This document shows positions 2,635-60,581 of a stretch of 64,000 bases of DNA, in pieces. The DNA lies in assembly GCA_905178155.1 (NCBI GenBank), contig CAJINV010000004.1, forward strand, positions 3,753,320 through 3,817,319, given 5' to 3'. Numbering within the stretch: the stretch's first letter is position 1; every line of letters starts with the position of its first letter. A program made the translations under genes and the position numbers. A model generated the notes under the pieces. The model had not been told where the DNA came from and searched no databases. It worked only from the letters and a program-made list of their open reading frames with translations. The stretch is from Amoebophrya sp. A120. Lineage: Eukaryota; Protista; Dinoflagellata.

Positions 2635-3823
2635 ATGAACCGCGTCGAGTCAAAGAAGCGCGACATCGCGGCGAAGCGACAGAGTTTGACAGGAACGGCA
2701 ACATCCACCACGTCCACTGCCGCTTCCTCTTCGTCGAACGCGACTTCTTTGTCGCGGAATTACAGTAAGGAATCCATCTCGCGCGCGCGCTCGAAATCAA
2801 CGCAGATGGACGTTGGCGACATGCACTCGCGGCAAAATTCGAAGGAGCCACCGCGGTGCAGTTCGAAGTTGCGAAAATTGGGCTTCAAAGACCTGAACGA
2901 GTACGAGGAAGGGGAGCTGGAGCGGGACTTCGTCGACAAAGTTCAGCAGGGCGACGACTCCTGGGTGCTCAACTGCCTCGCCGCGGTCGGCCGCCCGATC
3001 CTGTTTTCCGAGTGGGCCGGGGGGGTGTCCCGAACTTGCATTCTCTACGCCGCGAAACAGGGAGATCAGGAGGTACAGGGCGTGGCCCCGAGTTGTCTAC
3101 CTTTGTGACGAGAATGAAGAGTAGAATATTTTATACTTCAAACACTTCTGCTTTGCGGATTCTTACACCGGACGAAAATGAGAAATTTGAAGACAACGAA
3201 TACGAGCAAAAACTACAATCAAAAATCTCGTCCACTTCTAGATGTGCAAGATTCTTCTCGCCTACGGCGGCAAGGAGCTGCTGAAAGTCAAGGATTTGAA
3301 GGGCCGAGACGGCGAGTACTACGCGAAACTGCACGGCATCGACCTGCTCGACCTGATGCAGAATACCAGCCGGATCGACTGCTGGAACCACAAGGCACTC
3401 CGGACCCTGGGCCGCTCGCTATCGAAACAGAAGGAGGACGAAAAAAAGGGCGGGGGGAGCCCCTTGCAGGGGAAGACGTTGTATCAAATGCAAAAGTGTC
3501 TGGGTCTGGAAGATTGCAACTTGTCATGCTGTTTTTGGACTCTGAAAAAATTTGCATTGCATGACCAGCAAGAGGAGGTTAGTTTGTGCTACGCGGGGAG
3601 GGCAGTTGTCATGCGGAGTAGGCATCAGGAAGCCCTCTAAAAATCTGCGATGCTAGCTCGTGCATTACAGACATCCTGGGTCATGCAAAATATGGATAAC
3701 AAACCCGGCAACATTCCAGACCCAGACACTTTTGCAGTTGATACGTTGCTGCAGCTGTGCGAGCACAGCTACGAGGAGCTGGAAGAGGAGGAGCAAATGA
3801 AAAAAAAAGCATCGAAGAAGTAA
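2635..3823 (+). CDS. Ankyrin-repeat protein; exons 2635-3072, 3242-3481, 3749-3823
   Basis: GT-AG intron 3073-3241 joins TCILYAAKQGDQE|MCKILLAYGGKELLKVKDLKGR, an ankyrin-like motif. Removing the introner at 3482-3743 plus one cgttg gives GKTL|LQLCEHSYEELEEEEQMKKKASKK*. Confidence 0.75.
3482..3743. mobile_element. Family A introner/MITE (262 bp), DR cgttg
   Basis: TIRs tatcaaatgcaaaagtgtctgggtctggaa ... ttccagacccagacacttttgcagttgata; perfect 5-nt DR; frame restored on removal. Confidence 0.92.
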
Positions 3824-4595
3824 GGAAAATATAGGGATAAAAAGTAAATTAAAAACAGCTTGTTTTTGTCATGTAGGGTAGTTAGGAACAATGGAATGAT
3901 CGATTCTTGTACACCTGGGATTGTTCCTGGTCCTGCGTAGTTAACTACATTGAATAAATACCACCTGTATACCACTCAATTGGAAAAATCACAATCACAA
4001 TAGCATTCTTGCTTCTATTTTTATGTACAATTCTTTTGGTGGCAGTTCCGATGGTCTGCCTTATGGTGTAATGGGAGAAGTCGATTATTGATATCGTTAT
4101 GCTTGTATGCACAACGCTATTTGCAGCTTTCGTCGAAAATGCGTTTTTTTTCTTGTGCTACGACATGAATGTATTCACAAAGAAACCCACAGGAAATCTG
4201 TACAATTCTTTTGGAAAGGCAATGGAAAAGGAAGATAAGAAAACCGAAAGCGACTTTTATCATGTCTTTGCCGTGTTACTATGCTTACAACCACACACTC
4301 GTCTGTGTCCAAATCTTTTCGCAAAAAAAACGAGAGTCGTTGGCTTTGAGTTAAGTACAAGGAAATGGCGATTGACGAGAGTTTGAGTTAAGTACAGCGA
4401 CAAGCTGAAAATGTGGTTGTCATTCGACTTCTCGCAGTGTGCTTGCACTTGCTTTTAAAGATGAATACTACGTGTGTCGACCTTATATTAAGCTTTGACC
4501 CGTGCAAGAACTTTGTCGTCGAAGTAAGAGGGCGCATCAGAGAGCAAACGCAAGAATTCAGTCACTTTCACTTGGTCAGATACGGGTGTAAAAAG

Positions 4596-7500
4596 ATGTC
4601 CTCCGCAACTTCAACTTCCCGAATTCCCTCCCAGTCCTCTGCCAGCACGACGACAGCGTCGTCGCCGGCCACTACGGATGTTGAATCCTCCTCTGCACAG
4701 GAACAACAGCAAGAACCCGGCTCTCGAGGACATCCTTCACAACGGCCCGAGCGGGTGATGACCAATAACAAGCAACGTTCTACCAGTAAAAAATCGGCAA
4801 ATAAACAACTTTCCTCAACGCCGCAGAATAAGCAGCGGTTGGTGTTGAAAAATCCGGACGGCTCGCTTGTCGCTGGGTTTTCCCTATCAAATGCAAAAAT
4901 GTCTGGGGCTGGGAGGAATTAAACTTCTCATGCGCATTTCGCAACACACACAAATCTCTCATGCATAGGCAGCAAAAGTTGCCCATTCTCTGTCACGAAA
5001 ATGGGACATTTCTCATGCGGATTAGGCATTGCGGAACCTTATCGATGCCTGTGATGCTAAGGCCTCCATGCCACACCTTCTGAGGCATGCAAAAACAGCA
5101 TGAGAAAAATCTGCACTCATTCAGACCCAGACATATTTGCAATGCATATTCCCAATCCTACGTGGAGCCGAAGCCCCCCGCTTCGCCCGCAAACCACGTG
5201 CCCGCGTGGCTGGACTATCAAATGCAAATATGTCTGGGTCTGGAAGGTTGCAACTTGTGATGCTGTTTCTGCGTTCTAAAAAAATCTGTATTGCGTGACC
5301 AGCAAGAGGAGTCCAGTTTGTGCTACATGAAGACGGCGTCTCTCATGCGGAATAAGCATCAGGAAGCACCGTAAAAGTCTGTGATGCTAGGTTATGCATT
5401 ACAGGCGTCATGGGTCATCTAAAATTTAGGACAAGAGCAGACAGTAAGAATATCAAAACAAGATGAAAAATGCACGCATACACGCGCACTGCTTAACTGT
5501 GTGAAAGGTGTCGGCCCTGTTTGACCTGCTGCGGCAGGCAGGTGAATTCGTAGAACTGCTTCACATGTTAAGTAACGCACACCGGCCTCCTAGTTTTAGT
5601 GATGAATTTATATGCGCCAACATTAGTGAAAAATTTATATGCGCAGCGGCTTACTGCGCAGCGTCGGTTCGTGCACGTGTGTCGCTCTTCGTTCGTTGTC
5701 TCCAGGAGCTTGATCGTAAATTCGTGCGCTCCTCCTGCTTTATAAAATTCGATCTTCCCATCTGCCCCCGTTTTCCCACGTAGATTTAGATCTCTACCCT
5801 TTTATATCTTCTGTCGTTTAGTTTTGTTGTTTTGCCTGACTTGCCTTCTTAGCGCTAGCCCGCGCATCCCGCGTTCTTGCAGGGGCAGCTGTCTTTTTTT
5901 CCGCCTTGCCAGCGGATTTTGTCGCGGGGAAGAAAGCACTCTGGGTTCAACGGTCCCCGCCCCCCCTCGTCGTGGGTTCAACGGCCCCCATCCCTAAAGA
6001 GACCACTTAGAAATAATTCTACAGTAGATTGCAAATTTTACAGCGGTCGCCCGTTTTGCATCGGCCGAGGCTGCACACGCGTCCGGAGTATTTTTCACTG
6101 ACGTCCCTCGGCTTGGGTCATATGATGTTCTTCGTCAGGTCGCGCAGCCTCTATTAATGCGATTCGGGTCGGCTGCGCCCTATGGCTAGTATCTGTGATC
6201 CAGCTCGGCCATATATTTCGGGTTTCGACCCGAATAGCGCGCACTAGGCGCAACTATCTCTTTATACAGTGGTCTCTCCCTATCTTTACTATCTTTCAGT
6301 GCAGCGGCTTACTGCACTTATCGCCCTACGGAGACTGTGATCTGACCTCCCTCTACCTCCCCTGGTGGACGTCTGCCGCGGCTTACGGCTCTGGACGTTA
6401 ACTAGGATCGAGTGCGTTGTGCGGGTTTAGGGTTTTGAATATTTAATTTTGTATCTCCCACTGCTGCATGCACCCTGCTGCAGAACTTGTGATGCAAAAC
6501 AACCTCCGGGTTGTTCCCGCGCTTCAGGAGTAGTTCTGTTGCGTGCGGGCAGCAGAAGATGAGTAATGCTGTTGGTTTAGGGGGTTGAAAATGTTTGTGC
6601 ATGTGTAATGCAAAAGATGAAAAAGATTCGCGCGTGGGAGCGCATTTTTAAGCACAACGGGCGGGTGCCGTTCCCGCCGTCACACAATCACATACAATAC
6701 AATACAATACAACAGAGCGGGGCCCAATCAAAAAAAAAAAATTTGCATGACAAGTCTTGAATTCTTCCAGACCCAGACATTTTTGCATTCCATATGGACG
6801 GGGGCGTTGCAAATGAGTTGGAGTACATCTACACGAAGCACGAGCAGCTCTTTCTCGGGTTGCTGATCGTGCAGTTCCTGATCGAGATCGTGTTTACGGG
6901 ACTGTAAGCGATATTTTCCTTTCTTGCGTTTTAGCTTTGTTCTGATACAGTTAAGTACAGAATTTGGGTTAGGATCTGGTGAGTACAGAATTTGTGTTGG
7001 TGGTAATAAATCCGCCGGCATCGGCATCCGATATTTCTCATGCGTGATGCTGAAATGCGTATGCAACTGCAAGGAAAAAAATAATTTGTGATGCGAAAAT
7101 CTCATACATACAATCCTTACTACATCACCAGGTACATCTACTATGGCAATGAATTGATCGAGGAGATGACGATCATTTATTCGCACTTGATCGGGAAGAA
7201 CAACGTAGTCCGGCTCTACACCCTGACCGTCATCGTCGAACTGGTCTACATATGAAATGCAAATATGTCTGGGTCTGCATGAGTACAAGGTTTGTCATGC
7301 ATATTTTCCATGAGTCATGATGTCTGTGATGCATGCCTAGCATCACGATCACAGATTCTGCGGGAGCTTTCTGATGCTCCTACCGCATGAGAAATGCCCT
7401 CTTTGCGTAGCAACAACTGGACTTCTTTTCCTGTTCATGCAAGACAGATCTCATGTTGAATCCAAAGGCAGCATCACAAGTTGCACCCTTCCAGACCCAG

Positions 7501-10100: not shown

Positions 10101-10368
10101 TATCCAGTGCAAACTTGTCTGGGTCTGGAAAGATGGAACTTGTCATGCTACCTCTGCGGGCTACATAAAATCTGTATTGCGTGCTGAACGCGCTAGAAGT
10201 CCAGTTTCGGCAACGTGGAGAGGGCGTTTCTCATGCAGTATGAGCATCAGAAAGCTCATCTCGCAGAATCTGTATTGCTATGGCATGCATCGCAGGCACC
10301 CTGGGTCCCAGAACATATGCATGACAAACTTGGCACTTTTCCAGACCCAGACACATTTGCATTCGATA
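10101..10368. mobile_element. Family A element without its own matching DR
   Basis: tatccagtgcaaacttgtctgggtctggaa ... ttccagacccagacacatttgcattcgata; flanks atcgc and agagt differ. Confidence 0.85.
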
Positions 10369-10442
10369 AGAGTCCCTGGGGAACCATAACAAACACAGGC
10401 CCAGTTCGTGACCCGGGTGGCGTAGGCCCAGCGCAAATGAAG

Positions 10443-10725
10443 TATCAAGTGCAAACGTTCCTGGTTCTGGAAGCAGAGCAAGACTTGCGTCGACGTTGTC
10501 CTGTGCGTGGGTTCTACAAGATCTGTCTTGCATGTGCAGCAGCATGCGTCCAACCCTTGGTGCGCGAAGATGGTGTTTGTATTGCGGGATAGGCATCAAG
10601 ACGTCCTCGAGAAATCTGCGGCGCTAGGGCGTACATCGCAGACATGGTCATGGCTCACGCAAAACCACGTCGTGCGTGACAACTTTGCCTCCTGCTTCCA
10701 GACCAAGACATATTTGCGGTTGATA
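10443..10725. mobile_element. Diverged family A element without its own matching DR
   Basis: tatcaagtgcaaacgttcctggttctggaag ... cttccagaccaagacatatttgcggttgata; flanks tgaag and atcgt differ. Confidence 0.8.
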
Positions 10726-24250: not shown

Positions 24251-27200
24251 ATGTCCGTTTCCACCAAGTCGGCCCGCTCCGCCTTCACGCACGAATTTCC
24301 CCATTGGGAAGACCACCCCCTGGACGCCTTTCCGAACACCCGGCTAAACAGTTTGATCGAGGAGTGGTGCTGGCAGGAAAAAGTCGGCTCCTGGGTGTTC
24401 AACTGCAATGCTAAGAGCAAAAATGGACCAGAAACTTCTACAGCCTCAACGCCAAAAATTCGCCTGGACAACGACGCGCTGCTGTACATTTGCAAGTACC
24501 TGTTCGTGCGGAAATTGAAAATCTGTAAACGGTACCCCCGGAACTTCGCCGAATTTGAGGACTTGCGGAAAAAGTCGTACTTTTTCGCGAACGCGGACAA
24601 ATGCCAGCCGACGCCGATTGTCGGTATAGAAACAGCGTACTTTGATTCCTAAGTGTAACAATGTGCGAAGATGACGTGGCACCACTTCGAGTACCGACGC
24701 GGCGAGAAGTTTCCTACACAGCCTATAGTGCCATATGTGCGTCGAAAAATGTCAGGAAGACAAGTACACGTCGAAAAATTCACTTTACTTAGGTTCCCGG
24801 AGCAAGCATCACCTGCAGTTTGGCCAGAACCTAAAATACATCGCTGGACAGGCGAACGTATCCACTGCAAAAGCAACATCGCACTCATAGTAAATGCACC
24901 GCGCAAACTACAATTTCGCCAAAGTAGAAACTCGAACTTGCCATGCAAAATCAGATAGCAAAAGCAAAATCTTTCTGTCATGCATGTTAGCACGACCACG
25001 AGCAGTGCGATACTTTTGCAGTGGATAGAGCGACTGGGTTTTCTTTACGGGGGATTATAGTCAAGTCGTGTTCTTCGAGGACTTCAAATTTGAGGACAAC
25101 GATGTGGGCGATCTCGGCATGTGCCACCTGGCGGACTTTTTGGTCATGTCCAACGTTTTGGTCCGGAACTTGCGGTTTTTCAAAAACAAAGTCGGGGAGC
25201 TCGGCGCGGTCGCCATGGCGGGGTATCTGCAAAAGGCGCCAGTGCACGAGTTCCACGCATCCCACAATTTCATCCCCCGCCTTGGGTGCATGGCGTTGGT
25301 TGTTGCCGCCGCTAGTAACCCACACTACCCGCTTTGCTTCCCGGAATACTACAAGTGGCAATTGCAGCAAGGCAGGGGCAGCAGCAGCAGGAGTTCCTAC
25401 CAGCGTTACACCAACCAGACCGACCACGCCTGGCAGACCATGCGGGAAGACGGGCCGCAGCCGCGGCCGTTGTGGATGCGTTTGGAGTCGAACATCATCG
25501 AGGGGTGGACGGAGATGCGCACCATGGAAGCGGAGCGGGCGTTCCACCAGCACTGCAAGTTCGCTCATTTACTCGACCCCCGCGCCGCCATCTGCCCGGA
25601 ATTCTTGACGGAGTTGCGCGCGGCACGGTCGCGGGAGGACGACCTGATTTGCGAAATCCGGGACAAGCAAAACACCTCCTGCACGCCGAGGTTCTGCATC
25701 GGGAGTTGTCGAAGGGGGTACTGCGACCAAAAGGGAGCCTCGAAAGACGGGGTGCTGAAGCGGGGGAAAGTGGTGGATTTGGGGCAGGGACTGGGAAAAA
25801 TCAACATGATGTGGTACAAAATGCCGAAAATGCACATTTGCTACATGAACAGCAGCAAAATGGAACTTGAAAACCGGAAAAAAATCGCGCCGCCCATCGC
25901 AAAGGTATACGTATTTTTTTTTCGTAAGATTGAGTGATTGAGATTGTTGGACTTCGATCGCGATCGCAATCATGGCTTTTACAGGCAGAAACACAAGAAC
26001 GAATGATTTTTTTGTTTGTGCGATTGTATCATCACAATTTATTTTCCCAGGTTCCTTACGAAGGTCAGTTGTACCGGCACGGCTTCACGTTTTTTATGCA
26101 GCACGTTTACCAGCGGCACAACCTACCGGCTCCGAAAACCCTACAGCTCGCACTGGAACTCCCTTTAGATATTTCTCGGCGGTACTACCCGGACCTGACG
26201 CACGACGGGACCAGCGGCGCGGGCAGCCCGCGGGTGTTGGATTTGAATGTGGCCGCAGCAGCGGCCGCGATATCGTCTACTACGACTCCGCAGACGCCGG
26301 CTGGTACGGGGACAGCTTCACCTGGCGGTGTAGTAGTCAACGCCGGGGGCAAGCAAGACGTCGAGAGCAGTGGTGCTTCGGCTCCGATTGCCGGCGCACC
26401 ACAGCTTGAGCAGCGAACGGAGACGTTTGTTGAAACACCCCCGGCGGCCAACAAGGCCACCGCTGCTTCCTCCTCCTCCGCAAATAAACCCGCTTGGAAC
26501 ATGGCTTTGCTGTACCAAAAACGACCTGGAAGTAAAGACGCCGCAGCCGCGGCGCAGCAAGAAGAACTGCAGATGCAGAACGAGGAGAAAGGTCCTCGTG
26601 CAGAAAGTAGCGTGGAAGAAGATAAAAAGGAAGCACATTTTCAGCCGGTGAAGGACCAAGGGAGAGCAACCTCAGGAACTGCTTTGGGTGAAGTTGCAGG
26701 TGCAGGAGTAATCCAAAAGGAACAACTATCTAAACCTAAAAGGAAGGTTCCCATCAAAAATCCGCTCGAAACTTCATCAGACGACGAGTTGTCCCCGAAT
26801 GACGTAGGCCTAAGAACCCCGCCGAACAAAGACGAAAAAAAGAAGCACAAGTGGCACGATGACACTGAGAACTACAATTTTGACTCCGACGAAAGCTTGG
26901 ACTGGGGACGAGACCCGAATAGGAACAAGTCGAGTAAACCTCTTTCCCCCGATACAATACCGAACAAGCGAAATAAAGAGCAGCAGGAGGGTCCGCTTGT
27001 ACTAGATGCTGCAGAGCTGAAAAAGTGGAATTTGAATGTGGGCGAGAAAATAGAGCGGCCTGCTCCAATGAGTACAGCCGGGGCAGTCACGACGAAAGTT
27101 GTAACTAGTCCATCTACAACCCGGCCTGGCTTTAGCGAGCAGCGTCCGGAAGGCGTGGCTCCGACATTCAACATGCAGCAGGGAGGGAGCAGCAGCAGCA

Positions 27201-30200
27201 GGGCGCGACCGCCGCAAAACGAACTACAATCTCCGCCGCAGTTCAATAGGCAGCAAGGAGGGAGCAGCAGCAGCAGCAGAAATCCTCCTCCTTTGGCACA
27301 ACAGCAATCGCACAACTACATAGAAGTAGAAGAGGCGAAACAGCCCTCCCGAGGCCCACCTTTATTGACGAAGGAACAGTTCGAGAAAAGGGACGAGTTG
27401 CTGGCCAAGCACCGAGAAAGGGTGGAGCAGTCACGGAGATTGGGGACTACAGATCAACAGGGTTCAATATTTCAGAGTCAACAAGAAGAACGGATACGGA
27501 CAGCACAAGCAGGCCTACAGCAAAACCGGCCCGCCACCGGAGGATCAACCACGAGTAGATCTGGCTCTACTACTAGAAAACCACCGGTACTGTCATCAGC
27601 ATTTGAACCTCCATCGAGAAATATCAAAAATACACAGGGTCAAAAACAAAAACCACGAGCACAACGACCACGATTGTCCGAAGAAGAAAAAAAACAGCGC
27701 CTTGTAGATCTACAGCAGCGAATGCAAGCCTACAGAAAAAATATCCAAGACGCAACGAAATACCACCCGCAGAACATGTTTGGCTGCTGCAACCGGGACG
27801 ATTTGAATGACCCGGAGATGCCCCGAACCCGGGATGCACTCGCGAGAGAGGTGGAGGAGGCCGAAAAAAAGAACCTTACCGATCAGAAGAAGAAACTCTT
27901 AAATAACATCCGCGCGCAGCTCTTGACGCAGGTGCGGGAGAAGCGGTACTCGGCGCTGGATTTGCAGCGAGCGCAAGGGATGGCGATGAAGATGTTCGTG
28001 GAGAAATTGACGGCCGTTTTGAAAGCAGACCAGCATTTCAACGAACATTGGGATCGCTGGTTCTCCTGGATCTGTGAACATTTCTGGACCGAACTTCGGA
28101 GAATATCGCAGGAAACCTCCGGCACGAACTCCTTCGCGGGGCGCGGGTTTCAACCTTTCCGCACACTGGAATTGCTAGAATGGGAGCTCGCGGAGCGGAT
28201 CGGTACATAGTACTTACCTACAACGGTAGTAGATTGCATTTTGCAGCTGGCTCTATGTATGAGTGTATCAGTATGTGAATGTAAGTACCTATTTCGCGTC
28301 TGCTTTTGGTTACATATTAATTTCTACAGTCGGCGCGGTTGTTTTTTTAGCATCACAAAACTACTGCAACATTTGACTTGAACAAAATCATACAATCAGG
28401 TCTTTGTTTGAATCTGGATGTGGTTCCCGGTTCGGAAAGGGAGCGGATTTTTATGCCAGACATGGCGGAGAAATCGAAAAGACAGTGGATTGTGGTGACG
28501 AAGGGCTACACCGACCGCCAGAAAGGCCGCTGGATCAAGGTGCCCAACATTCCGAAAATTTGGCGGCACGTTTGGCACCACGCGGGAAACTTGAAACGCA
28601 TGGCGAAGCTCGTTGCTCCACCAAAAGAGAACAAGGACGACCCAAACAAGAAGAACCCCAATATTAGCCCTGGCGGCCCGGATCAACGAACAAAAACGCA
28701 AAGTACACCGGAAAGATACAAAGCGGCCAAGGCCAACGAACTTATCCACGCGTTTGACGACCCAGGACTCCGCATCCTGCAGCAGCACCGGCTTCAAAAG
28801 ACCCCACTGTTCCTCGGCATGGCCTCGCTTTCCAGTCCGTTGCAAGACTTGCTGTTGTGCGAGCGGGTATTTAGTGCGTGGGAAAAGAGAAAGATAGACT
28901 TGAGGAACTTTGAAGACCTGCAGGAAAACGTGTTTTGCCAGAAAATTTCGGATTTTTTCCTCACCTACCTGCTAAAAGTGGAAGCGGTTTACTACCAGAA
29001 ACTCACCCACTTCGCGCGGTTTAGAATCGAAAATAACGACCAGAAGATGATGACGTTGTTCGCGGAGAAGCACGACCTCGACGTGCCAGAATATTTGAAC
29101 AGCTTCGACGCGGAGAACGAGTTCCGAGTGCTGTTCAATGACGAAGACTACATCTACAAGCGGCTCTGTTCCTTCGAAAAATCCGTTTGTCTCAAGAACG
29201 GGTTGGATTTAACAATCGGGAGTTCCGTTTTGTCCCCTCACTACCACTATCAAAAGTAAAAAAAAATGTCTGGGTCTGGAAACTTGTGATGCTGGGTGGC
29301 GTCTCATGATGAGGCTACAGATGCTGGCTCAGCGTGACAAGTTTCTGAGCTCCTAGGTGTTGCCTATTCTGCATGACAAACTGCGCTTCTGCATCACAGA
29401 AAAGCGGAGCTCTTGGGTAACGTGCATGACAGATTTAAGAGTCATGTCAGACAAGCATGACAAACGTGAATTCTTCCAGACCCAGACACTTTTACAGTTG
29501 ATAACCACGTGGAGGCAGTGGAAAACTACGCGGTGCGCGCGGCGATTCTGTTTCGGATATCAAATGTAAAAATGTCTGGGTCTGGAAGATTGCCAGGTTT
29601 GTCATGCACGTTTTGCATGACTCCTGAACTGATGTCTGTGATGCATGCCCTAGCATAACAGATTTTGTGAGGGCTTCCTGATGCCTATACCGCATGACAA
29701 ATGCTCTTTCCGTGTGGCAAAACTTGGACTCTCTTTGCTGCTCATGCCATACAGATTTTTTTACAATCCAAAATCAGCATGACAAGTTGGATTCTTCCAG
29801 ACCCAGACATTTTTACAGTTGATATCGGAAGTTTCTGAATTCTTGGCTGAAACTGTTGGAGGAGTTTGTCGTGCAGAATCCGGTATCCTGTGCAGAAGTA
29901 TCGTACTCGTAGTAATCCTATTCATGCATTACAGATTTTTTTCTCAAGTTAAATCCGCATGACAAATTCCATTTCTAATGCTAAGAAAATTTGTAATGCA
30001 GTTTATACTAGTACGATGCTTTTGCACAGGATATCCGGGCAAATTACCGGGAAGAAACAAAACCAGGCTGCACCACCCGGTGGGGCTGTTTGACGCGAAG
30101 ATGTTTTTGTCGCATGAGACGCTGGAAAAGATAGCACAGCTTTTTCGAAGATTGCTCGTGTTGGAGATAAAGGGGCGTCCTGAAAAACAGGGGCTGGAAC

Positions 30201-49399: not shown

Positions 49400-50868
49400 A
49401 TGGTCTACGCGGTTCTCATCCACGGTGTGGAAGGTCGTCTGTTTTTCAGCCTGTTTTACTCTGCCGAGGGGAATGACAGCCGCAAGAAGACGAGGCAGCA
49501 GACCATCATGCGGCGGATTTTAGCGGAGCACTTGTTTCAAAAACACACGGACAGCAACTTCGTCTCATCTTCGACTAGCAGTTCCTTCGGCGGAATGTTA
49601 AATGGCGGAGGAAGTGGCTCGTCGTCCAGCGGAACTTCCAGCTCTTCCTCCACCGCAGCTTCCAGCGCGTACAGCCCGGTTTTCGAGTTGCTCTGCGGCG
49701 GGCCGGATGGACTGGCGGTGAAGGAGGGAAACAAAAGCAGCAGCACGTTGCTGAACAAAACGACAAATTTGTTTGGGGAATGGATTATGGATTGCAAAAA
49801 TGTCTGGGTCTGGAAGATTGCCAGATGCAGATTTTCCATAACCCATGAGGTCTGGTATGTAGGACATAGCATGACAGATTCTGCGGGACCTTTCTAATGC
49901 CTCTCCTGCATGAGAAACTGCCTCTCGATTAGGTCAAAAGTGCACAACTTTTGGCAATCATGCAACACAGTTTTTTGCCTGATTCAGATTTAGCATGACA
50001 AGTTGCAATCATCCAGACCCAAACATTTTTGCATTTGATATGGATCGGAAACAAGAAGGATAATGCAATGTTGCACCACGGAGGTCCTCTTTCACTAGAC
50101 CCGGCTGCATTCAGTGCTATGCACGGAGTAGTAGATAAAAACGCAGTGGATCCAGCAAGAATTACACATGGAAACACTGCGGACCCGCATCTGCTGGGCC
50201 ACGTGCCGGGCTATCTGCAGAACAAGAGCACCAACTACTACGCTTCGAGCCTGTTCGGTGGCGGCAGTTCTTCGGCCTCCAAAACCTTCGGGAACAATGT
50301 GCAGAGTGGGTACAACAATTACACGGCCTCGCGCAACAAGAAGAACGCTGCCAACGCGAACAACGTCACAGAGGGCGTGGTGCGGATGGGAGGCAGCGTT
50401 TCCGGGATTTTTGAGCAGAGCAAGATGCTGTTCTGGAAGCAGGTGAACGGTATCTTCTTCACGATTTTGTGTGAACCACTGGAAAACACGCTACTCGCGA
50501 CGAACTTCCTGGAACTGCTGATCACAGAATTGCACCGCCACTTCGAAATAGAGCTGAAGCTGGGCGGGAGCGGGAATTATGACAAGAAAAATAAGAATTA
50601 CACCGACAGAAATAATGCCATGACTGCCGCAGGAGATCACCATCCGCTGCTGGAGGACCATCTTCATGGGGGAGGGAATGACCACGGCCGGGTGGCCAGT
50701 AATGGCGGAAACAATTACGGGAGCACACTCGCGGATCGGATTCTAGACAAACCAGACGAAGTTCTGATGATTCTGCACTACATGCTCCCCGGAGGACAGC
50801 TGCAATTCATAACCTACAATCTGTACGCGTTTTTAAGGACAAACATAGCGGACTCACTGAGCAACTGA
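49400..50868 (+). CDS. AP5S1: AP-5 complex subunit sigma; exons 49400-49785 and 50046-50868
   Basis: MVYAVLIH, ENTLLATNFL and ILHYMLPGGQLQFI match AP5S1 motifs; long low-complexity inserts. Confidence 0.85.
49786..50040. mobile_element. Family A introner (255 bp), DR tggat
   Basis: A-type TIRs; frame restored (GEW|IGNKK) in AP5S1. Confidence 0.92.
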
Positions 50869-53958: not shown

Positions 53959-54590
53959 TAGTACAGATGAGCCTCGATGGCGGATACGAGTTGTAGTAAA
54001 CGACAATGCTTATGATTGCAGTGCGGTATGTGCCTTGGTACAATTACAATGACCGAGGATGGAAGAATAAAAATCTATCGAGGTGAAAATTCTTATTCTG
54101 ATGCAGTAATGCTGGGAGCCGCTGCTGCATTTGTTTTTGCGTTCCTTCACAGGCGTCTCCTGCAAGTCTGCAGCTTCCGTTCCTGGATGAATTTTCGTGC
54201 GGCGTGGTTGGGTCTTTTCGAAGATGAGAGCTGCAAAAATATTGTTGATTTGCTTCTGAGAGACAGATGACATCAAAACCATGCAAAAACCGTCTTGCAA
54301 AAAAGAACAATTTTCCCGACATAGATTTAGATAGACGAAAGAATTGATAAGTACAACTTCGACCAGCGTAGACAAGGTCAGCGAGTCTAGCTTGATGTGT
54401 CCTAGTACAAGCGTCGTGACAAAGTAAGCGATCATAGTACAATCATAATCAAGTCGTTTTAAGTGTACCAAGTGAGATACAAGAAAGGAATTTTTTTGTG
54501 CACGACCTCCTTCCTTTATCAACATTCCTCAAATCTAAAGAGTCAAGAGCCAAAGTTTCAGGTTTATAAGATTAAGCGTATCAAAATCAA

Positions 54591-57500
54591 ATGCCCTCGA
54601 CGCCAACGGACAGTTCATTCTTGCGACAGCAAGTCGTGCAAGACACACCGACTTTTGGGGTGCCAGGTCGTGGTGGCGATACAGGAAGGAAGGGCAGTAC
54701 GAGTAGCGCCACTGGTTTTCATCCAAAGAGTGGCACATCTTCTACCGCTGCGTCATTTGTCAAAACAGCAGCATCTTCGGCAAGCGACGCGGCTACAACA
54801 GGAACTACACCCGGAACAAGAAGTGCTGTCCCCTTCGCGGCCCCCGCACTTGTTCCTGCGGCCGAGACTTTTTCAAAAATGTCTGTGTCAGCCTCGTCGG
54901 CTACGGCTTCATCAGCTGCGGAAAGCAGAAGTACCATGATGAACATAGCGGCCAAAGAACCGCCCGTAGTTGCGGCCGAACCCGCGTTCGAGCGGGACAC
55001 GGATGAAACAGAAGAGATGACGGCGGACGAGGTGTGGCGAAAAGTCCTGATGCCCAACGCGGCGTCGGCACCACTAGCGTTTGCTGCGGGCTACGACCAA
55101 CGTAGAAATAATGATAGACGGTTCCTTGTTCAAATGTTTGAATTTCGCATCTATTTCTATACAGAAGCACCAAGATTTTGATGTTCCAGAAAAAGATGCT
55201 CGCATTCATTTTCGCTGTGTTTTTGTGTTGACGGTTCTTGGCCTGATAAATTTTTCCAAGAAATTGATTCCTATACAGGTCTGTTCGACGGCTGGGTCAA
55301 GCAGCCCTCGCCGTGCTGCGGTGCCGCGTCCGTTGCGGGCGCCTGGAATGCGCTGCGGAACGTGCACCGTTCGGGGGACAACTATCAAAAGGAAAAATCC
55401 CCCCACCCCATACTCAAACTAGAAATTTGTGATGCAGATTTGTGGTCACAAATCAGCTTTGTCATGCTAGAAGGGAAAAGATGCGGACTGTAGTGCTGGT
55501 TGGCGTGGGAAAGCCTTGCACCTTCAGCATGACAGGGGGCAGCTGGAAGTGGGAAACAGCATGACAAATTGCCAGCAAACGAGGCCAGAGCTGCGTCTCT
55601 TGGCCTTCTAGCATTACAAGTCGATTTGTGTACTCAAATACTCGACCCGGCTTTCACTAGGGGGAGCATTCGTACACTTTGTGCCCTCCGGGACTATGCC
55701 TCTGCTTCCGTCTAAACTGAGGGGTCCACTTATCCCTCTCGGTATTCGGTCGCAGGGAAGGGTTGCCGGGGTCTCCCTCGCATCGGTTCTCGATGTCGGG
55801 TGTGAGTTTGTGACTGCGGGGGCAGTGGTTGGCTTAGGTGTGTGGAGTACATCTGAAAAGAGGCTCCCATTCCTTCTTCCAGGTAGCGATCCTAGATCGC
55901 TGCCATGCGGAGCCACCCCCGTATTTCACCCCCAGGGGGTTGTGGACCTGGCAAAACCGATGAGTTCGGGCTGCTGACTGTTCCACCTCTTCCGAGAGCG
56001 ATCATGTTACGCCTCACGCCTCAAATACAGCATCACAAGTTTCGTTTTCGATGTGGGGAGGGGGGATTTTTCGTTTTGATAACAACGCGAAGGACTTCCG
56101 CAAGCTCTCCGATGTGCTGGCGAAGTACTGCGACGCGTTGGCGAGAGGGAGACGGAAGCGGTTGGATCGCATTCTCGACGGGTATTTGCGGTGTGTCCTG
56201 CCCTCCGGGGAGGAGATTGCGAAGATGGGGGACTACTTCTTGGCGAAAATTCAGCAGCACAACTTTCTCGGCGAGGAGTACGAGCAGCAAGAGTGGCAGC
56301 GGAGAAACATCTCGCATCTGGAGCTGCATGCGGGCGGTGGTGGGGACAACATCGCGACTTGTGCGACTGAAAAGAACTTGTCCAGTACCGCTCTCTTAGC
56401 TGCAGCGAACATCGAGTCTTCAATGGATATTGCGGTCGAGAAGATGGAGAAGTGTAGTAATAATTTTTCGGGGGCACCAACATCTAGAACCACTTCGGCA
56501 CTAGCAGTTCCAAAGATTGTGCAGAAGAACAATCCACCTGCTCTCCCGGTGGGCAAGGACATGACGGACGCCGAAAAGAAGGAGCTGCCGGTCTCGAAAT
56601 ATTTCAAGACGGAGGAGAAGTTATGAACTGCAAAAACATCGTACTAGTATAAATTGCAATACAAATTAGCTCAGCATTACAAACTTTGTAATGCGGATTT
56701 TCTTTAACAAAAAGATTTGTATTATGCATAAACGCAATTAGTACGAGTACGATACTTTTGCACAGGATAGAAGTTTCCGATGTTACTGTACCTAGAGAAA
56801 TTCATCGAGGACTACCTGTTTCAAGTTGAGCAACGCACCTGGATCGGGACCAAGAAGAGTATTTATTGCGTATGTTGTTGTTTGTCATGCAAGACACAAC
56901 ACGTGATGAGGTATATTTCTCATGCAGGACGCACAGAACAAATACGACATTTTATCAAAAAACAGAAAACAAGCCCGTCGACCCTGAGAAAACCCCTGTC
57001 GAGGGTGTTACCAAAACCGCCGCGAAAGACGCGTTGAAAGCGGTGTGTGAAGCACAAGTTGCGCTCCGCTGCACAGTGGCGACAGACGAAAAAAATTCTA
57101 GTCCAACTGCCGGGGAGAACAACATTTCGTCGTCCGAGGAAACCACTGCAGTGACGGCGTCGAGCGGCTCGAGTTCGCGCACCTCCAGTAAGGAGTCAAC
57201 CACAAATGCAGTTCCGACGCCATATTTCACGCCCTACTCGGACTTGAGTTCGGCCAGTTCGTCCGGCGAGGAGGGGGGCTTGGACCTGGGCGCCGTGCGG
57301 GTGGACCTGCTCACCGGGCATCCAGCGCTGCTGCCGAGCGGGCGGGGTTTGAATGTGGAAACGACCGCCGTGCAAAAGGACTATAACGAGATGAAGATGA
57401 GCTACCCTAGTGGTGGTGATACAACATCGCTGGCGACCACTTTTCAGAACGGGTTGGGAAATCGAACCATTTCCGCGGCGCTGGCAACCGCGAGTGCGTC

Positions 57501-60500
57501 TCTGCGCGGTGGACAGAGTGGCAAACCGGCGAGCGGAGTTGTACAACTTCTTGATGCACCCACCCCAGCGCACTCTCCCGCGGATGAAGAGGTATCAGAT
57601 AAAACTACTAGCGCGCCGGCGGCGGTGGACGAACAGAAGCAAGCGGGCCAAGCTGGTACCGAATCCGAAAGGAAGCAGGAGACAATCACACCACCAGGAA
57701 CAACTGCCGCTGCTGCAGACAACACTTCATCTACAACTCTGCAGCCCAACACTATCAACCCTTCCCAATACGAGGGGATTCTGTGGTCGGCGTTTCTGGA
57801 GCTCTCCCAGGAGGAGCGATTCGCCACCGAGCTGGGTGAACTGTACACGAAAAAGCGGGCGGTCGCGCGCCTCACGCAGTACTTACCCGGCACCGCGGAA
57901 ATCGGCAACTGGGGCATTCTCAAGGCGTGCAAAAGAACGGGGCTGGATTATCAAAGTGAAAAAAACTGCTTCCTCCCATTAACATTATTGAAACGGAAAT
58001 TTCTGTTGCTGGATTTGTGTACACAAATCAGAGCTGTATAATTGCAGCATGTGCTTGTAGGCATTTTCTAAACCTGATTAGGTATGCAAAAGGCTAGCAC
58101 TCAGGAATGACAGACAGCTTTGCAGTAGCCAAAAAAGCATGACCGCTTGGCTGGGGAATGCGCCGCACGGCGTCCATTTGCCTCATATGAAGGACAAAGC
58201 TGATGCTGATTTGTGGTCACAATCACAAATCAGCGTCAAACTCGATATGGGAAGGGGGGATTTTTTTATCACAATATAGTTGCGAAAGTAATCGCGAACC
58301 GGCGGTCGATTCTGGGTGGGAAAGCAGTTTTATGGAAGTGCACAGCCTCCCCTGTATTTGTCATCCAAAATCCCAAATCCAGGCTGTGCCTCTTGGCACT
58401 GTTTGCATGACAAATTCTGGTGTGCTGCACTTCTGTTTAGCATGACAAGTTCTGGTAGTTCAAATAGCACCAATACACTCCCGCGCAAATTTGTCATGCG
58501 AAACCGGCATTCTTGCTGATGCTTGTAATGCCACTCATGCTACACAAATGAGGAGGAGGGGCGGTTGTGTACTCTCATAACAATCCGCGCCCGGCGAGGA
58601 GAAGCGAAAGGAGGATTTGTGGAACCTGCTGAAATATCCTGTGCAAAAGTATCGTACTCGTATTGCAGTCATGCATTACAAATTTGCCTTCAAACGTAAA
58701 TCCGCATTACAAATTCTATTTCTCATGCAGTAATCCGCCGAACAGTCCCAGTACCCCCCGAGTAGCCCCCCCAACTACTCACCCGAGCCCATGATCCCAC
58801 CTGTGCTTCGCACCAACTTTGGATCGGCTCAACATTCGCTTCCGGGGGGTGCAATTTGGTATCTAACCGACATTGTGCCAAGAGGAGGGCCTCCTCGGAA
58901 CCGCCTGGCGAAAGCCTGCCATGGGTTTCACTATCCACGGGTGGTGTTGCGGGTATTCCTGGCGAAAGCCAAAAACCGGCAGAAAACGGGCCACGGCAGT
59001 GCTCTCGCTGGACATTACCAACATTTGTCCGGGCAGGGCCGTCCTCTTGCCGGACACAACCAACATCTGTCCGAAACAGCCTAGGGCCAAGACGACACCG
59101 TGAGGACGACCACAGGGGGTTCGTCTCAATGATGATGATGATGCTGAGGAAATTTGTAATGCATTTATACTTACGAGTACGATACTTTTGCAGTCCATAT
59201 GAAAGCGAACATCGGGCAACCGCAGACGGTTCTGCTGTTTCACCTCACCAACCATTACGCGTTGCTTTACTGTTGGCGCGAGTACTTCTGCCTGAAACCG
59301 CCGGGGGAAGAGAAGAATAAAGCAGCGCTCGTAGTAGGCGGAGAACAAGAAGAAGAGAAACTAAGTACAACTACACCAACAACGGGAGACGTCGTTTCTG
59401 TTGCTCCGGAAGGACGAGGAAACTATACAGGAGCAGTAGACCTACGACCTGCAACCACCACCACACGTCCTGCGGAAGAAGATGTCGAAAGTAGTAAAGG
59501 ACTCGAAACCGCTAGCAGTGCTTCTGCTTCTTCCTCCGCATCGAAAAACGTTGGGACGGGTGATGTTCCTGTCAGCAGTTCTTCATCAAAACAGGACCCA
59601 GCCGTCGTGGTGGTAGTGCCCAAAACTTCTTCCACCTCTGCCAATTGTTCTACTTCCGCCGCCGCGCCGAAGCGTTCCGCCACGCCACCGCCGAAGGTGA
59701 CACCGAGGGGGAGTGTGAAAAAGAAGAAGACGACAGGCGCGGCCTCTCGTGCAGGTGGAATCACTTCTGGTGCCAAGCAGAACACGACATCGACGACCTC
59801 TTCTACTTCGCCAAACAATCAATCGGGTGCTGCAGCTGCGGAGATGAGCGAGGGGAAAAAAACTTCATCAGCGACCAAACCATCTTCCTCTGCGAACAAT
59901 ACTAAAGCCGGTGCATCAACATCTTCTGTCCCACCGCCGGTCCCGTCGAATTACCAACACGTGCGGGAGATCTACACCGCCCGGAAGGGGCAGCGCCCCA
60001 CCGCGTGGCTGTCGTTGGATGAGGTGTACTATGAACTGCAAAAGTATCGTACTCGTATAAATGCATTACAAATTTCCTCAGCGTGAGAAATAAAATTTGT
60101 AATGCTGATGTACCTTAAGAAAAAGATTTGCAATGCATTACTGCAATGCGAGTCGTGCGATACTTTTGCACAGGATATGTACAAAATTCTGGTTGGGTGG
60201 TCCGGGTACGCCATCATGAAGGTCACGCTGAAGCCTACGAATTGCAAAAATGTCTGGGTCTGGAAGATTGCAACTTGTCATGCTGTTTTTGGATTCTAAA
60301 AAAATTTGTATTGCATGACCAGCAAGAGGGGTGCAATTTGTACTACACGGACAGGGCATTTCTCATGCGAAAGGTGCATCAGGTTCAGGAAGCCTTCTAA
60401 AAGTCTGCGATGCTAGGTCATGCATTACAGGCATCATGGGTCACGGGAAATATGCATGGCAAATCTTGCATTCTTCCAGAGCCAGACCCAGACATATTTG

Positions 60501-60581
60501 CACTTGATAAAGCCGGAAAACGACCCGTTCGCCTCCGAACAAAGCAACGACGAAGAGGATGAAGCGGACGTGTGTCAATGA
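54591..60581 (+). CDS. Protein with a split Cys/His papain-like (C39/BIVM-like) domain, interrupted by 7 introners and 2 GT-AG introns
   Basis: Reassembled motifs WVKQPSPCCGAASVAGAWNAL, IGNWGILKAC, LLFHLTNHYALLYCWREY and EIYTARKGQRPTAWLSLDEVYKILVGWSGY; GT-AG introns 55102-55278 and 56859-56965. The fold assignment is inference. Confidence 0.7.
55383..56081. mobile_element. Family C introner with nested insertion (699 bp), DR acaac
   Basis: tatcaaaaggaaaaatccccccacccca ... tggggaggggggatttttcgttttgata; frame restored (SGDN|AKDFRK). Confidence 0.9.
55642..56019 (+). mobile_element. Nested insertion with 9-bp TSD ctcaaatac
   Basis: ctcaaatac at 55633-55641 and 56020-56028; ends in the tandem acgcctcacgcctc. 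Removal leaves 312 bp, versus 313 bp for the C copy at 61891. Confidence 0.78.
56622..56769. mobile_element. Family B introner (148 bp), DR gaagt
   Basis: tatgaactgcaaaaacatcgtac ... gtacgatacttttgcacaggata; frame restored (EEK|FPMLL). Confidence 0.9.
57949..58276. mobile_element. Diverged family C introner (328 bp), degenerate DR tggat/tagtt
   Basis: Interior shared with 61891-62203; ends gatatgggaaggggggatttttttatcacaata; removal plus 5 nt gives GLD|AKVIAN. Confidence 0.75.
58331..58579. mobile_element. Family D introner (249 bp), degenerate DR agttt/acaat
   Basis: tatggaagtgcacagcc ... ggttgtgtactctcata; removal plus 5 nt gives KAV|SAPGEEKRKEDLW. Confidence 0.75.
58635..59199. mobile_element. 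Family B introner with nested insertion (565 bp), DR tgaaa
   Basis: tatcctgtgcaaaagtatcgtactcgta ... tacgagtacgatacttttgcagtccata; frame restored (LLK|ANIGQP). Confidence 0.9.
58729..59140 (+). mobile_element. Nested insertion ending in a (GAT)n tail, with atgc duplication
   Basis: The empty site tctcatgctgaggaaattt is intact in the B copy at ~62362. Removal leaves 149 bp, the family B size. Confidence 0.8.
60030..60177. mobile_element. Family B introner (148 bp), DR tgtac
   Basis: B-type TIRs; frame restored (DEVY|KILVGW). Confidence 0.92.
60236..60509. mobile_element. Family A introner (274 bp), DR aagcc
   Basis: A-type TIRs (left end begins tac); frame restored (TLKP|ENDPF). Confidence 0.92.

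What the first reader, a model, noticed from the sequence alone, without database searches (positions are those of the whole stretch)
3482..60509. Introners occur in both orientations within same-strand genes
Seen: all host genes are on +. Family A interiors run one way at 3482, 5216 and 60236 (left TIR followed by ttgcaacttgt(c/g)atgctg) and the reverse way at 7251, 29558, 35151 and 49786. Family B ends in caggata at 56622 and 60030, with the interior reversed relative to 29884 and 58635. The frame is restored in both orientations. Inference: a directional branch point or polypyrimidine tract in the interior cannot define the junctions, so recognition probably rests on the symmetric TIR stem.
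Basis: partly seen in the sequence, partly recalled or inferred. Interest (0 to 1): 0.8.

Follow-up and report, generated by a model that had tools for sequence, protein, structure and literature searches.

The report
Known Amoebophrya introners, spliced both ways

Summary
The window encodes three proteins that public databases name Amoebophrya sp. A120. It holds 13 family-A copies and 6 family-B copies of MITE-like elements, plus four elements of other families (C-F). Their inverted ends start TAT, and most have a perfect 5-bp target duplication.

Among in-gene copies whose orientation could be scored, A is 5 forward and 4 reverse, and B is 2 and 2. All sit in + strand genes.

Of 19 in-gene elements:
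- 16 are removed as exactly element + 5 nt, shown by RNA contigs or by the public protein models. This covers both orientations of A and of B.
- 2 have ORF support only.
- 1, with damaged ends, is retained in an RNA contig.

No permitted junction is GT..AG. Copies carrying 0.4-1.3 kb nested insertions are still removed.

Two elements with diverged duplications (E, F) place the junction at 0 or -1 nt before TAT and +5 or +4 nt after ATA.

These are the non-canonical "introner elements" of Farhat et al. 2021, who already proposed the hairpin model. I found no printed statement that they work in both orientations, so that point is a modest addition. That the stem itself is the signal remains inferred.

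The parts
3482..3743 (+). Family A element, forward (the reference copy); TSD CGTTG; sits in the last exon region of a + strand gene
   Evidence: Removing element + 5 keeps the frame to a stop at 3821 (phase 0). ORF evidence only.
4885..5148 (+). Family A element, forward (66% identity over full length); TSD TTCCC; intron 1 of protein P0003
   Evidence: Junction peptide found in P0003. None of the 6 junction options is GT..AG.
5216..6794 (+). Family A element, forward, carrying a nested insertion of about 1.3 kb that ends in a 12-A run; TSD TGGAC; intron 2 of P0003
7251..7518 (-). Family A element, reverse; TSD CTACA; intron 4 of the same gene (P0003), which also holds two forward copies
10101..10368 (+). 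Family A copy, forward, with no TSD, in an apparently non-coding stretch; not an intron
10442..10725 (.). Degenerate family A copy, no TSD, in a non-coding stretch
24859..25027 (.). B-like element; flanks GAACG and GAGCG (4 of 5 match); removal not tested
29248..29503 (.). Family A ends with a different interior (not orientable); TSD ACCAC; intron of P0002
29558..29824 (-). Family A element, reverse; TSD TCGGA; intron of P0002
29884..30033 (+). Family B element, forward (the reference copy); TSD TCCGG; intron of P0002
35151..35412 (-). Family A element, reverse; 32-nt perfect TIR; TSD ACCCC
   Evidence: A 233-codon ORF runs across it after removal. ORF evidence only.
49786..50040 (-). Family A element, reverse; TSD TGGAT; the only intron of the AP-5 sigma-like protein P0001
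   Evidence: P0001 (402 aa) equals the translation with 49786-50045 removed. RNA contigs stop at 49779 and start at 50040 (table 8). DNA contigs run from the flanks into the element.
55383..56081 (.). Family C element (TATCAAAAGGAAAAATCCCC); TSD ACAAC
   Evidence: Joint 55377>56082, skip 704, 5 ambiguous letters, in 4 of 4 RNA runs.
56622..56769 (-). Family B element, reverse; TSD GAAGT
   Evidence: Joint 56615>56769, skip 153, in 4 of 4 RNA runs. Orientation.
57949..58276 (.). Element D (C-like ends); flanks do not match; its 3' end is ambiguous (58276 or 58278)
   Evidence: Joint 57947>58281, skip 333, 1 ambiguous letter. Arms.
58331..58579 (.). Element E (TATGGAAGTGCACAG...); flanks AGTTT and ACAAT
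   Evidence: Joint 58329>58584, skip 254, 1 ambiguous letter. This fixes the junction at -1/+4 or 0/+5.
58635..59199 (+). Family B element, forward, with a nested insertion of about 0.4 kb; TSD TGAAA
   Evidence: The contig has 95 letters between the pieces ending at 57947 and starting at 59200. That equals the 49-nt and 46-nt exons, so 58630-59199 is removed. Orientation.
60030..60177 (-). Family B element, reverse; TSD TGTAC
   Evidence: The contig has 53 letters between 60024 and 60510. This is exact removal of this element and the next, each with 5 nt.
60236..60509 (+). Family A element, forward; TSD AAGCC
   Evidence: Same contig arithmetic. Orientation.
61891..62203 (.). Element F (C-like ends; 7 G.U-type and 0 A.C-type arm mismatches); flanks TCCGC and TTTGC
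   Evidence: Joint 61888>62207, skip 318, 2 ambiguous letters. Arms.
62272..62415 (.). Degenerate B-like copy lying inside a canonical GT..AG intron (62258-62594)
63097..63348 (+). Family A element, forward; TSD CTCCG
   Evidence: Joint 63091>63349, skip 257, 5 ambiguous letters, in 4 of 4 RNA runs.
63443..63698 (.). Family A copy with damaged ends (3-nt insertion after TAT; ATA changed to AAA); TSD CGTTT; retained in an RNA contig, where a TAA at 63449-63451 ends the ORF
   Evidence: Contiguous piece 63349-63806 in X5 (table 8)..

Best explanation
These are copies of the published MITE-like 'introner elements' of Amoebophrya sp. A120. In either orientation they are removed from the mRNA as exactly the element plus one 5-nt target-site copy, at junctions that are not GT..AG, and the removal is likely directed by the elements' conserved inverted termini (UAU...AUA) and the hairpin they are predicted to form.

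Shown directly:
- The elements have TIRs and 5-bp TSDs and occur at very high copy number.
- Both orientations occur in + strand genes.
- Removal from RNA is exact for both orientations of families A and B.
- Removal tolerates nested insertions of 0.4-1.3 kb.
- In two copies with diverged duplications (E, F), the junction lies at 0 or -1 relative to the first T and +5 or +4 past the last A. The upstream copy of the duplication therefore stays in the mRNA.

Inferred:
- The features seen to be shared by both orientations, by six families and by copies with nested insertions are the first and last roughly 16 nt and the stem they can form.
- So the machinery would read the termini and place the 3' cut by distance, because the 5 nt before that cut have no conserved sequence.
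- Inverted termini look the same to the transcript whichever way the element was inserted, which would explain why orientation does not matter.
- Whether a modified spliceosome (Farhat et al. found no U1 snRNA) or another enzyme makes the cut is unknown.
For: Identity: proteins P0001, P0002 and P0003 are each 100% identical to the window query used to find them (the match covers 95-100% of that query), and their sources name them Amoebophrya sp. A120. Farhat 2021 describes the A120 inverted-repeat motif as TAT, then 7 variable nt, then at least three As, with 3-5 nt direct repeats (section 11). That fits all 17 tabulated termini.

Copy number: word depth on the elements in DNA run X1 is about 10^4-10^5, against about 45 on unique flanks.

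Orientation.

Exact removal was supported for 16 of 19 in-gene elements:
- 6 explicit joints in 4 of 4 RNA runs: C, B56622 reverse, D, E, F, A63097 forward.
- 3 by contig-piece arithmetic: B58635 forward, B60030 reverse, A60236 forward.
- 7 by junction peptides in public proteins: A4885 forward, A5216 forward, A7251 reverse, A29248, A29558 reverse, B29884 forward, A49786 reverse.

The same RNA contigs skip five GT..AG introns, so they are spliced RNA from the + strand. DNA contigs at single-copy depth run from the flanks into the elements.

None of the junction options allowed by the protein models for A49786, A4885, A5216 and A7251 is GT..AG.

Offset control: only +5 and +8 reopen the 1091-codon ORF.

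Termini: 17 of 17 start with TA and 17 of 17 end with ATA.

Folding: all 19 elements fold with 15-33 arm-arm pairs. For the 18 that were shuffled, z is -3.8 to -13.2 (30 mononucleotide shuffles each; the 1579-nt copy was not shuffled). Four canonical introns give z of +1.4 to -1.4.

The copy with damaged termini is retained.
Against: - G.U-type and A.C-type arm mismatches are 23 and 23 over 20 elements. Family A alone shows 4 G.U against 13 A.C. So nothing shows selection on RNA pairing as distinct from DNA-level TIR conservation.
- Copy 63443 still folds with 26 arm-arm pairs yet is retained, so a stem alone is not sufficient. This is one case, contigs drop minor isoforms, and a spliced form may also exist.
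- Three of four B copies have four unpaired positions (4-7) next to the stem base and are still removed.
- The interiors carry a bidirectional motif that could supply internal signals in either orientation.
- The RNA evidence comes from assembled contigs of one study (two samples), not raw reads, so splicing efficiency per orientation was not measured.
- A3482 and A35151 rest on ORFs only.
- Reverse A copies rest on gene models plus contig end-points, not on a listed joint.
Confidence: 0.6

Rival explanations
1. The conserved 5' end (UAUC/G...UGCAAAA) and 3' end (UUUUGCA...G/CAUA) would be read as two separate linear motifs by a modified spliceosome. The hairpin would be only a by-product of transposon TIRs. 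Orientation does not matter because inverted ends give the same two motifs either way.
For: TA at the start and ATA at the end are invariant in 17 of 17 elements, while positions 4-7 vary and are often unpaired. The copy with damaged ends but an intact stem is retained. There is no G.U excess. Farhat 2021 found nearly all spliceosomal proteins present (section 10 passages).
Against: The last 5 nt of the removed segment have no conserved sequence, so the 3' junction would still have to be set by distance. Families E and C/F differ from A and B in most of the 16 terminal positions apart from TAT, yet they are removed the same way. Element F keeps pairing through 7 G.U-type mismatches and no A.C-type.
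Confidence: 0.2
2. Ordinary lariat splicing that uses interior signals. The elements carry branch-point-like TNATGC words on both strands, so either orientation would offer a sense-strand branch site, and the termini would only mark the ends.
For: GTCATG/CATGAC and related 6-mers are 10-22x enriched in the interiors. In 13 of the 14 elements examined, a sense-strand TNATGC lies 39-96 nt before the 3' end, in both orientations.
Against: 3 of the 6 canonical introns examined have no TNATGC at a branch-like distance, so it is not the organism's general branch signal. A29248 has its only sense copy 216 nt from the 3' end and is still removed. Nested insertions of 0.4-1.3 kb change the spacing without stopping removal. 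The motif could equally be a transposase binding site.
Confidence: 0.1
3. The elements are excised from DNA (as in ciliate IES removal) in the cells that make the RNA, rather than spliced out of RNA.
For: Removal is precise and leaves one copy of the duplication, which formally resembles precise DNA excision.
Against: DNA contigs of run X1, at the single-copy depth of about 40-50, run from unique flanks into the elements at 49786, 55383, 56769, 59199/60030, 60509 and 63097. No empty-site joint appeared among the 15 joints listed, though 469 more were not shown. RNA assemblies also hold contigs that run from other exons into element ends, which are unspliced forms (loose ends).
Confidence: 0.02
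4. The pattern is an artefact. The elements would be insertions in dead or mis-annotated genes, and frame restoration would be chance.
For: Copies 10101 and 10442 lie outside genes, and copy 63443 is retained.
Against: A 1091-codon ORF appears only with the +5 or +8 rule. Four RNA runs carry the joints. P0001 is a full AP-5 sigma-like protein that spans the junction.
Confidence: 0.01

Closest known systems
Introner elements (non-canonical introns with inverted and direct repeats) of Amoebophrya sp. A120; Farhat et al. 2021, BMC Biol 19:1 (PMC7789003; I read the abstract, sections 11, 12 and 16, passages of section 10 and the methods, and searched the supplement text)
   Same: Same organism, going by the database names of three encoded proteins. 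Same anatomy: inverted repeats at the intron ends beginning TAT, then 7 variable nt, then AAA; 5-bp direct repeats; non-GT/AG junctions; a predicted hairpin; co-oriented gene blocks; very high copy number. These are the same objects.
   Different: The paper calls the intron borders variable or unknown relative to the hairpin. In the text and supplement I searched, 'orientation' refers only to gene orientation. This report adds four things: both orientations are removed alike, nested insertions are tolerated, one copy with damaged ends is retained, and two copies with diverged duplications narrow the junction to 0/+5 or -1/+4.
Introners that create introns in either orientation with standard splice sites (Polarella glacialis classes 6, 8 and 10, and Aureococcus anophagefferens as cited there); Roy et al. 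preprint 10.1101/2020.10.14.339549 (passages read)
   Same: TIR/TSD transposons that become introns on insertion in either strand orientation, with removal that restores the reading frame.
   Different: Those use GT/GC/GA..AG sites carried by the element or recruited from a constrained TSD, and they show an orientation bias. Here the TSDs are unconstrained, no junction option is GT..AG, and the orientation counts are even (A 5:4, B 2:2).
Nonconventional introns of euglenids, as summarised in the review PMC11282704 (passages read)
   Same: Non-canonical junctions, intron ends that pair and bring the exons together, TSD-like repeats at the borders, a suspected MITE origin, and coexistence with conventional introns in the same genes.
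   Different: The lineage is unrelated. The euglenid signature is CAG/CTG at +4..+6 and -8..-6, whereas here it is TAT(C/G)...(C/G)ATA at the very ends. Excision as circles and removal after conventional introns are shown in Euglena and are untested here.
MITEs, the non-autonomous TIR DNA transposons
   Same: Size of 150-270 bp, TIRs of 28-32 bp, a fixed 5-bp TSD, no coding capacity, thousands of copies, and copies also present outside genes.
   Different: No autonomous partner was seen in the window and the superfamily is not assigned. Gozashti et al. 2025 (PMC12130899, passages read) report A120 introner families with TIRs and integrase-like ORFs. I did not test any link to families A-F.

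Membership tests
Amoebophrya A120 introner elements (Farhat 2021) | Inverted repeats of 8-20 nt or more at the two ends of the intron | tested here: met
   21-33 Watson-Crick positions of about 36 between the arms in all 19 in-gene elements.
Amoebophrya A120 introner elements (Farhat 2021) | Direct repeats of 3-5 nt overlapping the exon/intron borders | tested here: met
   16 of 19 in-gene elements have a perfect 5-bp repeat. D and F match at 3 of 5 positions and E at 2 of 5.
Amoebophrya A120 introner elements (Farhat 2021) | The A120 motif: TAT, seven less conserved nt, then at least three As | tested here: met
   5' arm: T 17/17, A 17/17, T 16/17, and A at positions 11-13 in 16/17 each. The motif wording comes from section 11.
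Amoebophrya A120 introner elements (Farhat 2021) | Non-canonical junctions supported by RNA | tested here: met
   Joints AC..TA, AG..AT, TT..GT, TT..AA, GC..TT and CT..TA in 4 of 4 RNA contig sets.
Amoebophrya A120 introner elements (Farhat 2021) | Host genome is strain A120 | tested here: met
   Three window-encoded proteins are named Amoebophrya sp. A120 by NCBI/nr, each at 100% identity to the query.
MITE / TIR DNA transposon | TIRs, a fixed-length TSD, many copies, no ORF | tested here: met
   The elements are 148-274 bp apart from those with nested insertions.
MITE / TIR DNA transposon | A cognate autonomous element with a transposase | not tested
   None seen in the window. The whole genome is not held.
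Canonical-site introners (Aureococcus, Polarella, Micromonas type) | GT/GC..AG splice sites carried by the element or recruited from the TSD | tested here: not met
   No junction option is GT..AG for the four elements enumerated. None of the 16 TSDs fits GGTNN, AGGTN, NAGGT or NNAGG, which are the only forms that would allow GT..AG (my own derivation).
Euglenid nonconventional introns | Non-canonical borders with pairing ends and TSD-like repeats | tested here: met
Euglenid nonconventional introns | CAG/CTG at +4..+6 and -8..-6; excision as full-length circles; removal after conventional introns | tested here: not met
   Positions 4-6 here are C/G, A, A, so the sequence signature is not met. 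Circles and the order of removal cannot be tested with assembled contigs.
U12-type (minor spliceosome) introns | A 5' site /RTATCCTT and a conserved branch site close to the 3' end (consensus recalled, not taken from a call) | tested here: not met
   Only family B begins TATCCT; family A begins TATCAA. The base before TAT is A or G in only 6 of 17. Farhat 2021 reports no U11, U12, U4atac or U6atac.
tRNA-type bulge-helix-bulge introns | Two 3-nt bulges around a 4-bp helix formed between exon and intron (recalled) | tested here: not met
   The flanks are identical direct repeats, not complementary, and the stem starts at the element's first and last base. This was judged by inspection only.

The most novel reading that the evidence does not exclude
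Amoebophrya removes transposon hairpins from its mRNAs by structure and distance alone. It cuts at the first U of the UAU...AUA hairpin base and five nucleotides past its last A, whatever those five nucleotides are, whichever way round the element was inserted and whatever is nested inside it. The 3' splice site would then have no sequence of its own. The pathway might be non-spliceosomal (an endonuclease plus a ligase), convergent with euglenid nonconventional introns.
Probability: 0.3. Interest if true: 0.8.

Novelty: already known. Interest (0 to 1): 0.4.

Why it matters
How Amoebophrya A25 and A120 splice the more than 60% of their introns that lack GT-AG has been open since 2021. My two full-text searches on Amoebophrya introns found no later paper on the mechanism.

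This window adds four constraints that any model must meet:
1. Removal does not depend on element orientation.
2. It does not depend on interior length or content.
3. The removed segment is always the element plus 5 nt, and the upstream copy of the duplication is kept.
4. One copy whose stem is intact but whose end triplets are damaged is retained.

All four can be tested genome-wide with data that already exist. None of them changes the published picture.

Tried and rejected
- **Whole genome:** not held for this window, so genome-wide orientation counts were not possible.
- **Sequencing runs:** no RNA holder is listed on record. I treat X3-X6, labelled 'RNA? (a guess)', as RNA only because their contigs skip five GT..AG introns. 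Raw-read run X10, which carries the same species label, laid 0 reads on 20 kb, so it gives no test.
- **G.U versus A.C arm mismatches as a test of RNA-level pairing:** 23 against 23, inconclusive. The elements with diverged TSDs (D, E, F, B24859) show 13 against 7, and F alone shows 7 against 0, but that split was made after seeing the data.
- **TNATGC as a general branch signal:** rejected, because 3 of 6 canonical introns lack it at a branch-like distance.
- **U12-type and bulge-helix-bulge readings:** rejected (see the membership tests).
- **Candidate TIR pair 54027-54479:** intergenic, no TSD, not followed.
- **A10101:** looked useful for fixing the junction but lies in a non-coding stretch.
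- **B24859 (flanks GAACG and GAGCG):** could show which flank is kept. I tried to fetch its annotated protein with the search of protein representatives and the queue was full three times, so it stays untested.
- **Earlier findings of this scan:** none for this genome or sequence.
- **Element D:** its 3' end is ambiguous (58276 or 58278), so only E and F are used as firm evidence for the junction offset.
- **90-nt flank translation:** misleading where elements or stop codons lie close by; replaced.
Full report
**What is there.** The window is eukaryotic. It encodes dynactin-5, AP-5 sigma and EMG1 domains. Three of its proteins are in public databases at 100% identity to the window queries, named 'unnamed protein product [Amoebophrya sp. 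A120]'.

A 22-nt core of the family-A terminal inverted repeat occurs 24 times, as 12 pairs, against 0 in 100 shuffles. A 13th, degenerate copy lies at 10442-10725. Each element begins TATC/G...TGCAAAA and ends with the complement.

- 16 of the 19 in-gene elements are flanked by a perfect 5-bp direct repeat of unconstrained sequence.
- Family B (TATCCTGTGCAAAAGTATCGTACTCGTA) has four clear copies and two degenerate ones.
- Four further elements, C to F, share the TAT...ATA ends.
- In DNA run X1 the word depth on the elements is 10^4-10^5, against about 45 on unique sequence. The families therefore have thousands of copies.

**The observation.** blastn of every copy against copy 3482 aligns 4885, 5216, 10101, 60236 and 63097 in the same sense over their full length. 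It aligns 7251, 29558, 35151 and 49786 in the opposite sense. Copies 29248 and 63443 share only the ends.

For family B, 29884 and 58635 run one way and 56622 and 60030 the other. The B interior is itself partly palindromic, with a 68% self-match in reverse.

In-gene counts are even: A is 5 forward to 4 reverse, and B is 2 to 2. One gene (P0003) holds two forward A copies and one reverse A copy.

**Strand and frame.** RNA contigs skip five GT..AG introns on the + strand, and the three public proteins map to +.

- Removing each element plus 5 nt produces ORFs of 1091, 595, 411, 344, 233 and 220 codons that run across the elements.
- In the 54.3-60.9 kb gene, only +5 (1091 codons) and the in-frame +8 (1084) open the frame. 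Offsets 0-4, 6, 7, 9 and 10 give 389-412 codons, and keeping the elements gives 387.

**RNA and gene-model evidence.** Runs X3-X6 (one study, two samples) are labelled only 'RNA?'. I treat them as spliced RNA because their contigs skip the GT..AG introns.

All four runs carry these joints:
- 55377>56082: element C, skip 704.
- 56615>56769: B reverse, skip 153.
- 57947>58281: element D.
- 58329>58584: element E.
- 61888>62207: element F.
- 63091>63349: A forward, skip 257.

The listed end dinucleotides are AC..TA, AG..AT, TT..GT, TT..AA, GC..TT and CT..TA.

Contig-piece arithmetic adds three more. There are 95 letters between 57947 and 59200, which equals the two small exons, so B58635 (forward, with a 0.4-kb nested insertion) is removed exactly. 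There are 53 letters between 60024 and 60510, so B60030 (reverse) and A60236 (forward) are both removed exactly.

The public proteins add seven. P0001 equals the translation with 49786-50045 removed. 16-residue peptides spanning the junctions of A4885, A5216 (1.3-kb nested insertion), A7251 reverse, A29248, A29558 reverse, B29884 and A49786 reverse are all present: 7 of 7. Enumerating every junction that reproduces the proteins gives no GT..AG option for the four elements mapped that way (A49786 in P0001; A4885, A5216 and A7251 in P0003). The ordinary introns in the same genes do have one.

In total, 16 of 19 in-gene elements have RNA or gene-model support. A3482 and A35151 have ORF support only. 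One element is retained, as described below.

For reverse A copies, the support is gene models plus contigs that stop at 49779 and start at 50040. No joint for them appears in the list that was shown.

**DNA versus RNA.** DNA contigs at single-copy depth run from the unique flanks into the elements. The elements are therefore in the genome and absent from the mRNA.

**Where the cut falls.** With a perfect duplication, six junction positions are indistinguishable. Elements E and F have diverged flanks and ungapped arms.

- E is removed as 58330-58583 or 58331-58584.
- F is removed as 61889-62206, or shifted by up to +2.
- The offsets common to both are -1/+4 or 0/+5 relative to the first T and the last A.
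- D agrees if its 3' end is placed at 58276, but that end is ambiguous.

So the upstream flank stays in the mRNA. The 3' junction lies 4-5 nt beyond the element, in sequence that shows no conservation.

**What could be recognised.** The features I found to be common to both orientations, to six families and to the copies with nested insertions are the termini. TA opens the element in 17 of 17 and ATA closes it in 17 of 17. An A-run at positions 11-14 is nearly invariant, and positions 4-7 vary.

All 19 elements are predicted to fold with 15-33 arm-arm pairs. For the 18 shuffled, z is -3.8 to -13.2; the 1579-nt copy was not shuffled. Four canonical introns score +1.4 to -1.4, and the fifth, which holds a decayed B copy, scores -4.4 (30 mononucleotide shuffles each).

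Several results count against reading this as proof of a stem signal:
- Arm mismatches are G.U-type 23 times and A.C-type 23 times.
- Three of four B copies have a 4x4 internal loop next to the stem base and are still removed.
- Copy 63443 keeps 26 arm-arm pairs but has a 3-nt insertion after TAT and AAA in place of ATA. It is contiguous in an X5 contig (63349-63806), where a TAA inside its left end closes the ORF.
- That single case favours a role for the end triplets. Because contigs drop minor isoforms, a spliced form is not excluded.

The interiors are not purely directional. GTCATG/CATGAC-type words are 10-22x enriched and sit on both strands of nearly every copy. In 13 of the 14 elements examined, a sense-strand TNATGC lies 39-96 nt before the 3' end, in both orientations. 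It is not a general branch signal, since 3 of 6 canonical introns lack it at such a distance.

Orientation independence therefore does not exclude interior signals by logic alone. The nested insertions and A29248 make them unlikely.

**What is known.** Farhat et al. 2021 (PMC7789003; abstract, sections 11, 12 and 16, passages of section 10 and the methods, and the supplement text searched) describe exactly these objects:
- More than 60% of introns in A25 and A120 are non-canonical.
- Introner elements have 8-20 nt inverted repeats and 3-5 nt direct repeats.
- The A120 motif is TAT, then 7 nt, then AAA.
- They propose a hairpin model that brings the exon ends together.
- They found no U1 snRNA, and they call the borders relative to the hairpin variable or unknown.

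In their main text and supplement text, 'orientation' refers only to gene orientation.

Intron creation by introners in either orientation is in print for Polarella and Aureococcus, with standard splice sites (preprint 10.1101/2020.10.14.339549, passages). Euglenid nonconventional introns are the nearest functional analogue (review PMC11282704, passages). Two full-text searches on Amoebophrya introns found no later work on the Amoebophrya mechanism. A third, general search for introners in either orientation brought up the Polarella preprint.

**Verdict.** The objects and the hairpin idea are already published. The orientation point, the tolerance of nested insertions, the retained copy with damaged ends and the 0/+5 (or -1/+4) junction are small additions. 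They constrain a mechanism that remains unknown.

Noticed in passing
window 5426-6745 (inside element 5216-6794): A nested insertion of about 1.3 kb that ends in a run of 12 As, which looks retroposon-like. The host element is still removed exactly in the public protein model P0003.
   Followed up: partly
window 58730-59140 (inside element 58635-59199): A nested insertion of about 0.4 kb and unknown kind inside a family-B copy. The RNA contigs still remove the whole 565-nt element plus 5 nt.
   Followed up: partly
window 62258-62594: A canonical GT..AG intron that contains a decayed B-like copy (62272-62415; flanks CTTGA and CTGGA; right end shortened). Either the element landed in an existing intron, or a decayed introner now relies on nearby standard splice sites.
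   Followed up: no
window 63443-63698: A family-A copy with damaged end triplets is retained in an RNA contig, and a TAA inside its left end closes the 344-codon ORF. Removing it would extend the ORF. Whether both forms exist is unknown.
   Followed up: partly
element interiors throughout the window: Words such as GTCATG, TCATGC, TGTCAT and TAATGC are 10-22x enriched in the interiors and occur on both strands, often as short inverted pairs. They may be transposase binding sites. Three canonical introns (6904-7131, 56859-56965, 62258-62594) also carry them and may be decayed introners.
   Followed up: partly
window 49337-50670, 56674-57340, 58008-58674, 60009-60675, 62010-64000: RNA contig depth over element sequence is several-fold to 20-fold above that of the flanking exons, and RNA contigs from other loci run from exons into element ends. 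Element-containing RNA (unspliced or excised) is therefore abundant in the transcriptome assemblies.
   Followed up: no
window 8000-11500: A stretch without a convincing ORF that holds two family-A copies lacking target duplications (10101-10368 and 10442-10725) and a GC-rich block at about 8.9-9.4 kb.
   Followed up: no
window 17115-20462: An unbroken 1115-codon + strand ORF in the most GC-rich part of the window (GC 0.63, AT skew -0.34). Its only family match is a short, weak DUF1990 hit, and it holds no element.
   Followed up: no
run X10 (raw RNA reads, same species label): It laid 0 reads at 95% identity or more on 20 kb that the other RNA runs cover. The label probably covers a different strain.
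   Followed up: no
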